This document shows positions 53,461 to 55,110 of a DNA stretch of 61,354 nt, in pieces; the first letter of the stretch is position 1; the number at the start of each line of letters is the position of its first letter. The stretch spans positions 1 to 61,354 of the IMG/VR virus record IMGVR_UViG_3300028841_000043; one strand, written 5' to 3'. Below the pieces are notes generated by a model, which did no database searches, was not told the origin of the DNA, and saw only the letters and a list, made by a program, of their open reading frames with translations. The position numbers were made by a program, and so were the translations under genes. Source of the stretch: a virus.

Positions 53461-55064
53461 GCTGTCCTCCAGTTGCCGCTCCTGCGCGGCGTCTTGACCA
53501 TCGCAGGGGCTTGGAAGCCCTGCGCCATCTGCCTGAGCGCGTCGGCGGCCTCGGAGTGGCCCTCGACCTTGCTCGGCACGGCAGCGTTCCAGCCGGCCTT
53601 CTGCTTGTTCCAGGTCTTCCTGTACTTTGCCAGGTGCGCCAGGCCATCCTTGCAGTGCGCCGCGTCGAAGAAGCACGTCGGGAAGACCTTGCGCGTCATC
53701 GCAATGCCGTTGAGCACGTTGTCGATCGCGGGCACGACGATCCAGGTGCCGCCGAGCTTGAACTCGCGCAGCTCGTCCTCGGCCGACACCACGCGCGCGC
53801 CCTGCTGGCGCTTGTGGCCGGCGTCGTGCGGCAGGTGGTGCGTGCCCCACACGTAGCCGAGCTTTTGCATGCGCTCGATGAAGTAGGCGTAGGGCTCGCC
53901 CCAGCCCTCGATGAAGCCGACGAAGCGGTTCTCGAACCCCACGCGCTGCATGAGCCATACGGCCGTTCCGTCTGTGTTGCCGATGTCCCAGAACGTGTGC
54001 ACCGGGACGCCCATGACGTGCGGCACGCTCGTGATGCGGCCGGCCTTGCGCGCGTCGGCAAGCTGCTCGCCGTAGTACAGGCCCTCGGTGGACGCCTGGA
54101 ACGCCTCGTCTGGCGTGCTCGGGTACTCCTGCCACATCTTCTCGGGGTCTCCTGAGAACTCGGCGTCGCGCGTGGCCACGTACCACGCGCGCTGCTGCGG
54201 ATCGAGCGTCGTGCCGGTCTTGGCCTCGACCTGGTGGAAGTACTCGCCGTCCTTCTGCGTGATCGGCACGTCGGCCGACACGATGCGGTAGCCGGGCTCG
54301 TGCCACCACGCGGCGAAGTGAAAGCGGAAGTCCTTCTCGCTGAGTTGACGGCCCGACTGCGCGAGTTCTCGCGCGCGCTGCGTCATCTTGTAGAACTCAC
54401 CCTCGGCGCCTTCGGCCGTGCTCTCGATGATGGCGATGCCGTCCAGCGGCACCGCTGGCAACGAGCCGGTGACGACTTCCAGCGCCTTGGCCGGATCGGA
54501 TGCGCCGATCTTGCCGAACTCGCTCACGAGAAGCCGGTGGATCGTGCCCGAGCGCATGGAGGTCGCCACGCGCAGGCTGGAGTTGTTGTGCGCGAACAGC
54601 AGCTCGCTCGCGCTGTCGCGCTGTAGCGGCATGGCCAGGCGCAGCGCGGGCGGCATGTTGTCGTAGGCGACCTTCACCTTGTCGCGGAAGAACGCCTCGG
54701 CCGCCTCGCGGTCCTGCGCGATGATCCCGCAGCGCTGGTTGGAGTTGAACAGCGCGTGATCCAGCCACATGATGCACACGAGCGTCGTGTACCCGAGCTG
54801 CCGCGCCTTGAGGATCAGGTTTCGGTGCCACAGCCGGCCGATGAGGCGCATCTGCGCGCGGTTGGGACGGAAGGGGATGATCGAGCTGTCACCCACCTTG
54901 CTCTTGACCATGATCTTGTAGAGCTGGCCGGAGCACACGCGCCACATCGGGTCGGACAGCGCCCGCTTCAGCTCCTCGGGCGTCTTGGGCACGAACTCCA
55001 GCGGCACCGAGCCGATCGGCACGTCGGTCGGGGCGGCGTCACTGTCAACCGTTGACAGTGACAT
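53457..55064 (-). CDS. terL: Terminase large subunit
   Basis: It has ATPase and nuclease halves typical of TerL and follows TerS. Start is taken at ATG 55064 (MSLSTVDSD...), and an upstream in-frame ATG at 55130 is possible. Confidence 0.9.
   Translation of the reverse strand: MSLSTVDSDAAPTDVPIGSVPLEFVPKTPEELKRALSDPMWRVCSGQLYKIMVKSKVGDSSIIPFRPNRAQMRLIGRLWHRNLILKARQLGYTTLVCIMWLDHALFNSNQRCGIIAQDREAAEAFFRDKVKVAYDNMPPALRLAMPLQRDSASELLFAHNNSSLRVATSMRSGTIHRLLVSEFGKIGASDPAKALEVVTGSLPAVPLDGIAIIESTAEGAEGEFYKMTQRARELAQSGRQLSEKDFRFHFAAWWHEPGYRIVSADVPITQKDGEYFHQVEAKTGTTLDPQQRAWYVATRDAEFSGDPEKMWQEYPSTPDEAFQASTEGLYYGEQLADARKAGRITSVPHVMGVPVHTFWDIGNTDGTAVWLMQRVGFENRFVGFIEGWGEPYAYFIERMQKLGYVWGTHHLPHDAGHKRQQGARVVSAEDELREFKLGGTWIVVPAIDNVLNGIAMTRKVFPTCFFDAAHCKDGLAHLAKYRKTWNKQKAGWNAAVPSKVEGHSEAADALRQMAQGFQAPAMVKTPRRSGNWRTA
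55026..55061. repeat. Palindrome TCACTGTCAAC-C-GTTGACAGTGA plus 13-nt flank (copy 3 of 4), abutting the terL start
   Basis: The palindrome is at 55039-55061. All 36 nt are the reverse complement of 7055-7090. Confidence 0.9.
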
Positions 55065-55082
55065 TTGCGGGTTATCCCTCTG

Positions 55083-55110
55083 CTCACTGTCCTCCGAGGA
55101 CAGTGACCGC
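55083..55110. repeat. Palindrome TCACTGTCCTC-C-GAGGACAGTGA plus flank (copy 4 of 4) between terS and terL
   Basis: The palindrome is at 55084-55106 and is identical to 35218-35245. Confidence 0.9.

What the first reader, a model, noticed from the sequence alone, without database searches (positions are those of the whole stretch)
55026..55110. Four-member family of perfect 23-bp palindromes TCACTGTC-N7-GACAGTGA: two at the terS/terL junction, one in the ParB-like gene, one in the giant gene
Seen in sequence: TCACTGTCAAC-g-GTTGACAGTGA occurs at 7055-7077, and TCACTGTCAAC-c-GTTGACAGTGA at 55039-55061. These two share 36 identical nt including a 13-nt flank, in opposite orientation. TCACTGTCCTC-c-GAGGACAGTGA occurs at 35219-35241 and at 55084-55106, and these two share 28 identical nt. 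All four share the 8-bp half-sites TCACTGTC/GACAGTGA. I found only isolated half-sites elsewhere, at about 11210 and 21275. A 16-nt specified motif is not expected even once by chance in 61 kb. The two adjacent copies lie 22 nt apart, between the terS stop (55209) and the preferred terL ATG (55064). Inference: these look like binding sites for a dimeric DNA-binding protein. One candidate is the ParB-like protein, whose own gene carries one site in parS fashion. Other candidates are TerS (pac recognition) or one of the RHH/HTH regulators. Hairpin or cruciform roles are also possible.
Basis: seen in the sequence. Interest (0 to 1): 0.65.

Follow-up and report, generated by a model that had tools for sequence, protein, structure and literature searches.

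The report
Binding sites of a phage ParB-like protein
The repeated 23-bp palindromes are almost certainly the DNA sites recognised by this temperate phage's own ParB-like protein, which gives a large, uncharacterised family of phage ParB-like proteins a predicted target sequence and a testable recognition rule.

Summary

- Hundreds of its homologues carry a palindrome at the same codons, directly after the helix-turn-helix.
- The arms differ between lineages but stay self-complementary.
- The exact 23-mer survives in homologues only 39-56% identical in protein.
- Residue 128 of the helix-turn-helix tracks base 6 of the half-site: Arg with G in 35/35, Asn/Ser with T in 7/7, with at least six independent switches.
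- Relatives with a different in-gene motif scatter that motif through their genomes. Contig R places two copies 45 nt apart in the 5' end of terL, as here.
- Bcep22 and Ralstonia phage YL2 lack the gene and lack the palindromes around terL.

The protein has the ParB/Noc/KorB fold, no ParA partner, and sits in the early operon ahead of a helicase and a Toprim protein.

The closest validated analogue is BisD-bisS, also an 11-n-11 palindrome inside genes.

What binding achieves is inferred, not shown: clamp loading, regulation, replication origin or packaging. TerS/pac, hairpin-only and peptide-motif readings are disfavoured.

The parts
7055..7077 (+). Site A1, TCACTGTCAACgGTTGACAGTGA. It lies inside the ParB-like gene at codons 147-154 (SLSTVDSD), the C-terminal half of the predicted second HTH helix.
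   Evidence: Homologous position in homologues.
55039..55061 (-). Site A2. Same 23-mer as A1 on the coding strand, plus an identical 13-nt flank (36 nt in all). It forms codons 2-9 of terL counted from ATG 55064.
   Evidence: (I2).
55084..55106 (-). Site B1, TCACTGTCCTCgGAGGACAGTGA on the coding strand. It lies 45 nt upstream of A2, just 5' of the terL ribosome-binding site, and inside the alternative terL ORF that starts at GTG 55130.
   Evidence: Same 45-nt pair arrangement in relative contig R.
35219..35241 (-). Site B2. Identical to B1 over 28 nt. It is codons 733-740 of the 4448-aa polyvalent protein gene, 26 codons before the InPase domain.
27968..27990 (-). Site C, TCACTGCCCGCcGCGGGCAGTGA on the coding strand. 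This is the fifth family member, a perfect palindrome with compensated arm changes, at codons 3150-3157 of the polyvalent gene.
6617..7606 (+). Orphan ParB-like gene (329 aa): ParB/Srx N-domain, HTH, beta-hairpin, disordered linker and C-terminal coiled coil. The mechanical ORF starts at 6341, but homologues start at MTAMKD (6617).
   Evidence: PHROG_1033 at E 7e-21. PF02195 is precomputed for this protein and for many of the listed homologues. AF2 model pLDDT 84. Foldseek hits to ParB, Noc, KorB and Spo0J. Box alignment. Start position.
7603..8325 (+). HNH / endonuclease VII-like gene immediately downstream of the ParB-like gene. Neighbourhood clustering recovered no window-containing family for it, and a same-position family covers only 11 of 80 loci.
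8250..9821 (+). SF2 helicase (ResIII/DEAD plus Helicase_C). It follows the ParB-like gene on the same strand in 54 of 80 homologous loci.
9910..10911 (+). Toprim_3 (primase-like) protein, the third member of the conserved module (38 of 80 loci).
53457..55130 (-). terL (start at ATG 55064 or GTG 55130). The conserved core begins about residue 26 from the ATG. The extra N-terminal segment carries sites A2 and B1.
55209..55823 (-). terS (Terminase_2).
24091..37437 (-). Polyvalent 4448-aa protein gene (InPase, Eco57I-type methylase, SNF2-type helicase, LPD37). It hosts sites B2 and C.

Best explanation
The five palindromes are the cognate, parS-like DNA sites of the phage's own orphan ParB-like protein (gene 6617-7606).

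Inferred from covariation: a dimer binds each site through its helix-turn-helix domains. Arg128 reads the G at position 6 of each half-site, and the outer 8 bp of each arm carry most of the specificity.

Shown by comparison: one site is embedded in the gene itself, directly after the HTH-coding codons. This is an ancestral feature of a family of more than 2,300 proteins. The other copies were seeded elsewhere by short in-frame duplications, seen as the 36-nt and 28-nt identities. They sit in protein segments that tolerate them: the TerL N-terminal extension and regions outside the annotated domains of the polyvalent protein.

Inferred by analogy with ParB, KorB and BisD: the sites act as nucleation or loading points for an NTP-switched ParB-type complex that marks phage DNA and acts at a distance. 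The conserved pair at the 5' end of terL most likely ties early ParB-like expression to control of the late and packaging region, or to replication and packaging of the genome. No ParA partner is involved.
For: 1. Position. Exact-pattern scans and homology searches place the motif inside ParB-like homologues at the same codons: 8 of 21 IMG/VR hits, 13 of 120 genome hits and 11 of 14 metagenome hits.
2. Enrichment. 27 of 73 distinct homologues found by protein similarity have a perfect palindrome with arms of 8 or more within 110 nt after the HTH anchor, against 0.8% of control windows.
3. Arm covariation. Arm positions 6-8 are 89-100% Watson-Crick paired with 3-4 pair types and almost no G-T. 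The covariation score is 0.50 against 0.12 in shuffles. The closest homologue (69% identity) differs from the window's site by three fully compensated changes.
4. DNA beyond protein. The identical 23-mer is kept in homologues only 39-56% identical in protein, in contigs of 47-63% GC.
5. Protein-DNA covariation. Residue 128 is Arg in 35/35 sites with G at position 6, Asn/Ser in 7/7 with T, and His/Asn in 2/2 with A. For eight of the nine non-G homologues, at least one of the two nearest protein neighbours is a G/Arg homologue. One such pair is 95% identical.
6. Cognate dispersal in independent genomes.
- MW202545: its only three perfect palindromes with arms of 9 or more are one motif, with one copy in the ParB-like gene.
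- Contig R: 14 copies of AGTGGAACAAGTGCCAC, four of them in the gene and two 45 nt apart in the terL 5' end.
- L257: about 9 sites.
- L095: two copies.
- L235, L236, L238, L241 and L243: motif copies at the terL start.
7. Absence. Bcep22 and YL2 lack the gene and lack palindromes around terL.
8. Fold. The AF2 model matches ParB, Noc, KorB and Spo0J over about 150 columns. Box I Q/R, the box II GxxR and the box III Asn are retained.
9. Precedent. BisD loads at bisS, an 11-n-11 palindrome present twice inside genes (PMC12409273).
Against: - No binding, NTP or in vivo data exist for this family.
- The catalytic Glu of ParB box II is Phe here, so a canonical CTP hydrolysis cycle is uncertain.
- The three site types in the window have different but perfectly symmetric centres (AAC, CTC, CGC). 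A simple '8-bp half-site plus spacer' model does not predict this. It hints at selection for full palindromy (contacts reaching the centre, cruciform extrusion, or hairpin-templated repair).
- In most 20-kb loci of homologues only the in-gene copy is seen, so dispersal may not be universal.
- Motif orientation in contig R follows transcription, which a symmetric dimer site does not require.
- The downstream function is inferred only from position and analogy.
Confidence: 0.72

Rival explanations
1. Replication-origin model. The same protein binds the same sites, but acts as the origin-binding initiator of the helicase/Toprim module. The origin lies inside its own gene, as with lambda O/ori and SPP1 G38P/oriL. 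The other copies would be secondary origins or sinks. This rival concerns function, not the identity of the binder.
For: - The gene sits in the early-right operon after cro, where lambda O sits.
- It is followed on the same strand by an SF2 helicase in 54 of 80 loci and a Toprim protein in 38 of 80.
- DEAD helicase plus Toprim is treated as a lambdoid replication module in PMC7556043.
- Relatives carry iteron-like tandem arrays in the gene: four copies at 33, 33 and 45 nt in contig R, three in L257.
- From my own knowledge: lambda ori lies in the O linker, and SPP1 G38P binds oriL in gene 38 plus a distant oriR.
Against: - There is no AT-rich unwinding element near any site. The lowest 40-nt GC within 300 nt of the sites is 50-57.5%.
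- The window has a single in-gene copy, not an array.
- ParB-fold proteins are not known initiators.
- GC skew is uninformative here.
Confidence: 0.25
2. Structure-only elements. The palindromes act as RNA or DNA hairpins, for example by masking the terL start, as processing sites, or as pause or terminator signals, with no dedicated sequence-specific protein.
For: - Both junction copies fold as hairpins flanking the ribosome-binding site and ATG. The leader folds with z = -3.6.
- As single-stranded DNA the 23-mers fold at -8.8 to -11.6 kcal/mol.
- Every site type is fully symmetric, centres included.
Against: - The positionally equivalent motifs of relatives do not fold: contig R -2.6 kcal/mol, L257 0 kcal/mol. 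They are nevertheless multi-copy and exact.
- The outer TCACT is invariant by construction in the 18-sequence set, while a hairpin would tolerate change there.
- Covariation shows almost no G-U or G-T intermediates.
- The amino-acid to base correlation has no explanation under this model.
- There is no T-tract terminator, no promoter consensus and no Rfam match.
Confidence: 0.08
3. pac site. The junction copies are recognised by TerS to start headful packaging. The other copies are incidental.
For: - Two copies lie at the terS/terL junction.
- Relatives keep motif copies at the terL start.
- T7-like contigs L001, L008 and L281 carry two copies of the same 23-mer next to terL (L008), near the contig end in L001 and L008.
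Against: - The motif tracks the ParB-like gene across phages with unrelated terminases.
- Bcep22 and YL2, checked in detail, have homologous TerL and lack the palindromes. Most IMG/VR TerL relatives also show no long palindrome near terL.
- Copies inside the ParB-like and polyvalent genes are unexplained by this model.
Confidence: 0.05
4. Miniature mobile or homing element. The palindromes are short in-frame insertions spread by the neighbouring HNH endonuclease, or are that enzyme's target.
For: - The 36-nt and 28-nt identities that include flanks show copy events.
- An HNH / endonuclease VII-like gene abuts the ParB-like gene.
- The TerL N-terminus looks like an insertion relative to Bcep22 and YL2.
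Against: - The clustering recovered no window-containing HNH family. A same-position family covers 11 of 80 loci, whereas the in-gene site is general.
- The site has kept the same position in the gene across roughly 40% protein identity.
- It covaries with the HTH residue.
Confidence: 0.05
5. Peptide motif. The SLSxxDS[D/E] peptide is the selected feature, for example a protease or interaction site, and the DNA symmetry is a by-product.
For: All five copies are in the same frame on the coding strand.
Against: - Rare codons (TCA, AGT) are fixed in a genome with about 90% GC3.
- The encoded peptide varies freely between homologues while the DNA stays palindromic.
- In L008 the copies lie downstream of terL in a region with no convincing gene.
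- The motif of contig R is read in different frames in different genes.
Confidence: 0.02

Closest known systems
BisD-bisS of ICEclc (Pseudomonas), a ParB-like CTP clamp (PMC12409273)
   Same: - An orphan ParB-like protein with an N-terminal NTP-binding fold and an HTH.
- Its loading site is a 23-bp 11-n-11 perfect palindrome.
- A few dispersed copies lie inside coding genes of a mobile element.
- It acts on genes at a distance, not in partition.
   Different: - BisD carries an activator domain and works with BisC. The phage protein ends in a coiled coil and has no BisC-like partner that I could identify.
- bisS is not inside bisD. Here one site always lies inside the protein's own gene.
- The context here is a phage early operon with a helicase and a Toprim protein.
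- NTP binding is untested, and the box II Glu is Phe.
Canonical ParABS (Spo0J/ParB-parS)
   Same: - ParB fold plus HTH.
- Palindromic sites recognised by a dimer.
- From my own knowledge: B. subtilis has a parS inside spo0J.
   Different: - No ParA anywhere in the genome.
- The site is 23 bp with an odd centre, not 16 bp.
- The phage is integrative, with a tyrosine integrase at 12829-13911.
- Sites are scattered over 48 kb, including late genes.
KorB-OB of plasmid RK2 (PMC11790492), and SopB with IR1-IR4 of phage-plasmid N15 (PMC7205306)
   Same: A ParB-family protein with several palindromic sites on a mobile genome. KorB represses genes over long range as a CTP clamp (PMC11790492). From my own knowledge, KorB's OB sites are dispersed around RK2, and the N15 inverted repeats are dispersed and lie partly in late-gene regions.
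   Different: - KorB works with KorA and IncC.
- N15 SopB works with SopA to partition a plasmid prophage.
- Neither has a site at a fixed position within its own coding sequence.
Lambda O/ori and SPP1 G38P/oriL (my own knowledge)
   Same: - The cis site lies inside the gene of the protein that binds it, in a tolerant segment after the DNA-binding domain.
- The gene sits in the early operon next to replication genes.
- SPP1 also has a second, distant binding region.
   Different: - The protein fold is unrelated.
- Those origins use iteron arrays plus an AT-rich unwinding element, which is absent here.
Stoperators of Cluster A mycobacteriophages (my own knowledge)
   Same: Many copies of one short site are scattered through a phage genome, partly inside or between late genes, and are bound by one phage protein. 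The orientation bias in contig R is reminiscent.
   Different: Stoperators are asymmetric 13-bp sites bound by the immunity repressor. Here the binder is ParB-like and is encoded in the lytic early operon.

Membership tests
ParB-family DNA-binding protein with cognate palindromic (parS-like) sites | N-terminal ParB/Srx (ParB-CTPase) fold | tested here: met
   PHROG_1033 at E 7e-21. PF02195 is precomputed for this protein and for many of the listed homologues. Foldseek top hits are ParB 6sdk and 7bnk, Noc 7nfu, KorB 8qa8/8qa9 and Spo0J 1vz0. Profile against PDB gives E 1.7e-4 to MxParB.
ParB-family DNA-binding protein with cognate palindromic (parS-like) sites | NTP-binding boxes I-III (Q-x-R, GxxR, ENxxR) | tested here: inconclusive
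   The alignment to MxParB shows TQxR retained, GxxR retained as G-F-H-R, and the box III Asn retained. The box II catalytic Glu is Phe and the box III Glu is Ala or Thr. Nucleotide binding itself cannot be tested here.
ParB-family DNA-binding protein with cognate palindromic (parS-like) sites | Helix-turn-helix domain following the N-domain | tested here: met
   AF2 helices 127-134 and 138-154. Structural alignment of about 150 columns covers the N-domain plus the DNA-binding domain of Noc and KorB.
ParB-family DNA-binding protein with cognate palindromic (parS-like) sites | A specific palindromic site recognised by that protein | tested here: met
   This is computational evidence only: the conserved in-gene site, the residue-128 to base-6 covariation with at least six independent switches, and lineage-specific dispersed copies. 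Physical binding cannot be tested here.
ParABS partition system | Adjacent ParA ATPase (and a ParA-binding motif in ParB) | tested here: not met
   Pfam and PHROG scans of the window's genes, and the called genes of near-identical contig L269, show no ParA/CbiA-type ATPase. An integrase is present. It is therefore not filed as a partition system.
BisD/KorB-type ParB clamps acting in gene regulation | CTP-dependent loading at the site, followed by sliding and an effect on distant promoters | not testable with these tools
   Only the site geometry (11-n-11, inside genes) and the fold match.
Origin-in-gene replication initiators (lambda O type) | Iteron array plus an adjacent AT-rich unwinding element inside the initiator gene | tested here: not met
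   The window has a single in-gene site and no AT-rich stretch near it. Arrays exist in the relatives contig R and L257.
pac site recognised by TerS | The site co-varies with, and is confined to, the terS region of phages sharing the terminase | tested here: not met
   The two terminase relatives checked, Bcep22 and YL2, lack it. The site follows the ParB-like gene into phages with other terminases.
Intrinsic terminators / known structured RNAs | A G+C-rich stem followed by a T-run, or a match to an Rfam family | tested here: not met
   No terminator-like or promoter-like sites in 54700-55500. No Rfam match in the whole window.

The most novel reading that the evidence does not exclude
A ParB-fold protein, rather than a classical initiator, is the site-specific organiser of a widespread phage replication module (ParB-like, SF2 helicase, Toprim). 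Its primary site is written into its own coding sequence. Extra copies in the 5' end of terL physically couple replication, or ParB-type clamping of the genome, to terminase expression or to packaging. This would be a new job for the ParB switch in viruses, with a readable recognition code (Arg-G, Asn/Ser-T).
Probability: 0.25. Interest if true: 0.8.

Novelty: new variant of a known kind. Interest (0 to 1): 0.62.

Why it matters
Orphan ParB-like proteins are common in phages and prophages. Recent surveys list them as having unknown function (PMC12704722; PMC12315714 notes them in lambdoid early operons). ParB-type switches can only be studied biochemically once the loading site is known.

This analysis supplies three things:
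- a predicted site for a family of more than 2,300 proteins;
- a simple rule for finding it, namely the codons straight after the HTH;
- a specificity determinant that can be swapped in a single experiment.

It also shows a recurring link between this early protein and the start of the large terminase gene. That points to an unrecognised layer of control over late expression, replication or packaging in Bcep22-like temperate podoviruses and their relatives.

Tried and rejected
- LexA/SOS box. The motif contains CTGT-N9-ACAG, but the beta/gamma-proteobacterial box has N8 (my own knowledge), and the site tracks a phage gene. Dropped.
- Sigma-70 promoter. Site type A contains TTGACA on both strands, but no -10 element follows at 16-18 nt.
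- Terminators and Rfam families. None found.
- Host REP-like repeat. The genome scan did find unrelated hairpins with the same outer 8-mers, for example in Nocardioides. They have different flanks and no link to this phage.
- 5mYOX-associated ParB activators (PMC13229309). Those proteins lack a DNA-binding domain, and no dioxygenase was identified among the window genes scanned. Not applicable.
- Close relatives of the ParB-like gene. A single-protein scan of IMG/VR found none. An alignment-based scan was needed.
- Site type B in metagenomes: no hit.
- Extra copies of each homologue's own palindrome within 10 kb either side were mostly not found. Whole contigs would be needed.
- AT-rich unwinding element near the sites: none.
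- GC skew as an origin marker: dominated by transcription direction.
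Full report
**1. The observation**

Allowing two or three mismatches adds one more site, 27968-27990 (TCACTGCCCGCgGCGGGCAGTGA). 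It is itself a perfect 11-1-11 palindrome. That makes five matches against 0.01 and 0.23 expected from shuffles.

The bare 8-mer occurs nine times. Eight of those are the arms of the four perfect sites. The ninth is a single isolated copy at 21276, and there is none near 11210.

The 36-nt identity (7055-7090 against 55026-55061, opposite strands) and the 28-nt identity (35219 copy against 55084 copy) are exact. Five of the six perfect palindromes with arms of 11 or more in the genome belong to this family. A first-order Markov simulation expects 0.27.

**2. Genome context**

- The window is a circularly permuted or terminally redundant 61,213-bp genome: positions 1-141 equal 61214-61354.
- It is a temperate, Bcep22-like podovirus. 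TerL is about 60% identical to those of Bcep22, DC1, JC1 and Ralstonia phage YL2.
- It has a P22-type portal, a Terminase_2 TerS and a tyrosine integrase.
- It encodes a 4448-aa polyvalent protein with InPase, Eco57I-type methylase, SNF2-type helicase and LPD37 domains.
- In the near-identical contig L269 the early-right operon reads: CI-like repressor, divergent Cro, five small genes, ParB-like, HNH, SF2 helicase, a 64-aa gene, Toprim_3, and further on the integrase.
- No ParA-type ATPase is present anywhere in the genome.

**3. The sites belong to the ParB-like gene family**

A scan of IMG/VR for the exact pattern returned 21 loci. In 8 of them the motif lies inside a homologue of the window's ParB-like gene, at the same codons. 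The same holds for 13 of 120 bacterial-genome hits (prophages of several phyla). It also holds for 11 of 14 metagenome hits to the exact 23-mer of type A. Those proteins are only 39-56% identical to the window's, and their contigs range from 47 to 63% GC. The DNA is therefore conserved far beyond the protein.

I then searched by protein instead of by motif. This found 559 relatives in IMG/VR, of which 80 loci were kept, and 2,315 proteins at E of 1e-10 or better in the large protein collection.

- 27 of 73 distinct homologues carry a perfect palindrome with arms of 8 or more within 110 nt after the HTH anchor. Only 0.8% of control windows do.
- The arms differ between lineages but remain self-complementary. 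Examples are TCACTTGAAACgGTTTCAAGTGA, ATCTTGGGAAaTTCCCAAGAT, CATCTCTTCACgGTGAAGAGATG and ATACTGGCAACgGTTGCCAGTAT.
- On 18 homology-found sites of the TCACT...AGTGA class, arm positions 6-8 are 100%, 100% and 89% Watson-Crick paired. They show three or four pair types and essentially no G-T intermediates. The three central positions are 61-78% paired.
- The closest homologue (69% identity, same gene order) has TCACTAATAACgGTTATTAGTGA. That is three fully compensated changes relative to the window.

**4. The protein reads the site**

Among 44 distinct homologue/site pairs, I looked at the residue aligned to window Arg128. It lies in the first HTH helix, in the sequence 'WSD-R-EIA'.

| Base at half-site position 6 | Residue 128 | Count |
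|---|---|---|
| G | Arg | 35/35 |
| T | Asn or Ser | 7/7 |
| A | His or Asn | 2/2 |

For eight of the nine non-G homologues, at least one of the two nearest protein neighbours is a G/Arg homologue. Examples:

- L037 (Ser, T) against L028 (Arg, G): 95% identical over residues 20-146.
- L268 (His, A) against the window (Arg, G): 73% identical.
- L025 (Asn, T) against L275 (Arg, G): 71% identical.

At least six independent co-switches are therefore implied. Arg with G is a classic direct-readout pairing. This is the strongest single argument that this protein, and not TerS or another regulator, binds the palindromes.

**5. Cognate dispersal in other genomes**

- The complete phage MW202545 (57,457 bp) has the same module: ParB-like, helicase, primase-like. 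Its only three perfect palindromes with arms of 9 or more are copies of TACTAGTC-n-GACTAGTA. One is inside the ParB-like gene, one is in a tail-region gene, and one is near the record start.
- Contig R (IMGVR_UViG_3300003830_000036) is syntenic with the window: capsid 80%, portal 67%, TerL 66% and ParB-like 39% identical. It has 14 copies of AGTGGAACAAGTGCCAC.
  - Four are in tandem in the ParB-like gene, right after the HTH.
  - Two are 45 nt apart inside the N-terminal extension of TerL. This is the same spacing as 55039/55084 in the window.
- L235 and L236 repeat the arrangement of contig R. L241 and L243 have two copies of GTGGAACTAGTTCCAC, with one mismatch in one L241 copy, just upstream of terL and further copies elsewhere. 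L238 has GTGGAAGTTCTTCCAC at the terL start and two more copies.
- L257 has about nine sites of GGTAACGTTTCCAC (at most two mismatches): three in the ParB-like gene, one 236 nt upstream of terS and one at the terL 3' end.
- L095 has two copies 7.9 kb apart.
- Bcep22 and YL2 lack the ParB-like gene. They have no palindrome with arms of 8 or more in the 6.5 kb around terL. Their TerL N-termini are about 13 residues shorter (Bcep22) and 11 residues shorter (YL2) than the window's. The missing part corresponds to the 36-nt repeat.

**6. What the protein is**

The AF2 model has a mean pLDDT of 84. It shows an N-domain plus HTH (residues 1-155), with the second HTH helix (138-154) running through the site-encoded residues. 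A conserved beta-hairpin follows (168-182), then a disordered linker and a C-terminal coiled coil.

Foldseek's best matches are ParB-CDP (6sdk), M. xanthus ParB (7bnk), Noc (7nfu), KorB (8qa8, 8qa9) and Spo0J (1vz0), over about 150 columns. A family profile aligns to M. xanthus ParB with box I Q-x-R, the box II GxxR and the box III Asn retained. The box II catalytic Glu is Phe.

The gene is followed on the same strand by the SF2 helicase in 54 of 80 loci and by the Toprim protein in 38 of 80.

**7. Mechanism**

Shown by comparison:
- the site and the protein form a co-evolving pair;
- one site is always in the gene;
- extra copies are lineage-specific;
- a pair at the terL 5' end recurs in a sub-clade.

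Inferred:
- dimer binding through the HTH;
- ParB-type nucleation or clamp loading at the sites, by analogy with BisD-bisS. The bisS site is GAGCTATCCCCnGGGGATAGCTC, an 11-n-11 palindrome found inside inrR and ssb (PMC12409273). KorB (PMC11790492) is a further analogue;
- an effect on the late and packaging region.

An origin function in the manner of lambda O remains a live alternative, because of the gene's position and the tandem arrays in relatives. It lacks an AT-rich element.

A hairpin-only role is disfavoured. The equivalent motifs of contig R and L257 do not fold. No terminator, promoter or Rfam signal is present. The window's junction copies would nevertheless form hairpins around the terL start site in the mRNA. 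That could add a translational effect.

**8. Unexplained**

- All three site types in the window are symmetric to the centre, although the centres differ.
- The motif orientation in contig R follows transcription.
- T7-like contigs L001, L008 and L281 carry two copies of the window's exact 23-mer 204 nt apart. In L008 they lie beside terL near the contig end. No ParB-like gene is present in the sequence held.

**9. Novelty**

ParB-parS logic is known, and dispersed or in-gene sites have precedents. The literature I could search notes phage ParB-like genes as uncharacterised (PMC12704722, PMC12315714). It does not describe this in-gene site, the recognition rule or the terL-proximal pair. I rate it a new variant of a known kind, with interest 0.62.

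Noticed in passing
window 1-141 and 61214-61354: The two ends are 100% identical over 141 nt. The window is therefore a circular assembly or terminally redundant genome of 61,213 bp.
   Followed up: partly
window 12-617 (- strand ORF): About 30 tandem 18-nt repeats encode hexapeptide repeats of the form [12 protein letters not shown]. They lie in a protein whose ORF crosses the assembly junction and may form a beta-helix-like repeat domain.
   Followed up: partly
window 3525-3695 (-): A 56-aa ORF is built almost entirely of GD and GY dipeptide repeats, encoded by 12-nt tandem repeats. GC3 is 95%, so it is probably expressed.
   Followed up: no
window 35689-35713: GGAGCGCTTCGCgGCGAAGCGCTCC is an unrelated perfect 12-1-12 palindrome inside the polyvalent gene, 450 nt from site B2. 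It has the same odd-centre geometry, occurs once, and has no obvious binder.
   Followed up: partly
window 42860-42880: CGATCTTGGCcGCCAAGATCG is a 10-1-10 palindrome. Its arms (ATCTTGG...CCAAGAT) match the in-gene site of a different ParB-like lineage (L032). This may be chance or a relic.
   Followed up: no
window 55165-55182: CGGAATCCCGGGATTCCG is an 18-bp perfect palindrome in the terS-terL intergenic region, upstream of site B1. No T-run follows it.
   Followed up: no
window 3987-4020 and 4622-4655: 34-nt inverted repeats (74% complementary) rich in CATGCTTCAAT-like words lie at about 3987-4020 and 4622-4655, around the ORF at 4170-4778 (-). That ORF probably corresponds to the CI-like repressor gene called in contig L269, although I did not scan it. 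These are among the lowest-GC stretches of the genome and are probably the immunity operators.
   Followed up: no
window 56372-56599 vs 59034-59261, and 57189-57250 vs 60013-60074: Direct repeats of 70% and 82% identity, about 2.7-2.8 kb apart in the early-left region, suggest duplicated genes or segments.
   Followed up: no
L008 1-600 (also L001; L281 12114-12340): T7-like contigs carry two copies of the window's exact type-A 23-mer 204 nt apart. In L008 each sits in a longer palindrome and is followed by a second hairpin, between the 3' end of terL and a contig end marked by five 20-bp tandem repeats. No ParB-like gene is present in the sequence held.
   Followed up: partly
contig R (L022+L248), 14 sites: The imperfect palindrome AGTGGAACAAGTGCCAC points the same way as transcription in 12-13 of 14 copies. 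Its half-sites resemble canonical parS half-sites (GTGGAAC/GTTCCAC) in swapped order.
   Followed up: partly
window 24091-37437 (-): A 4448-aa polyvalent protein combines InPase, Eco57I-type methylase, SNF2-type helicase and LPD37 domains. It is comparable to the giant proteins of Bcep22-like phages.
   Followed up: partly
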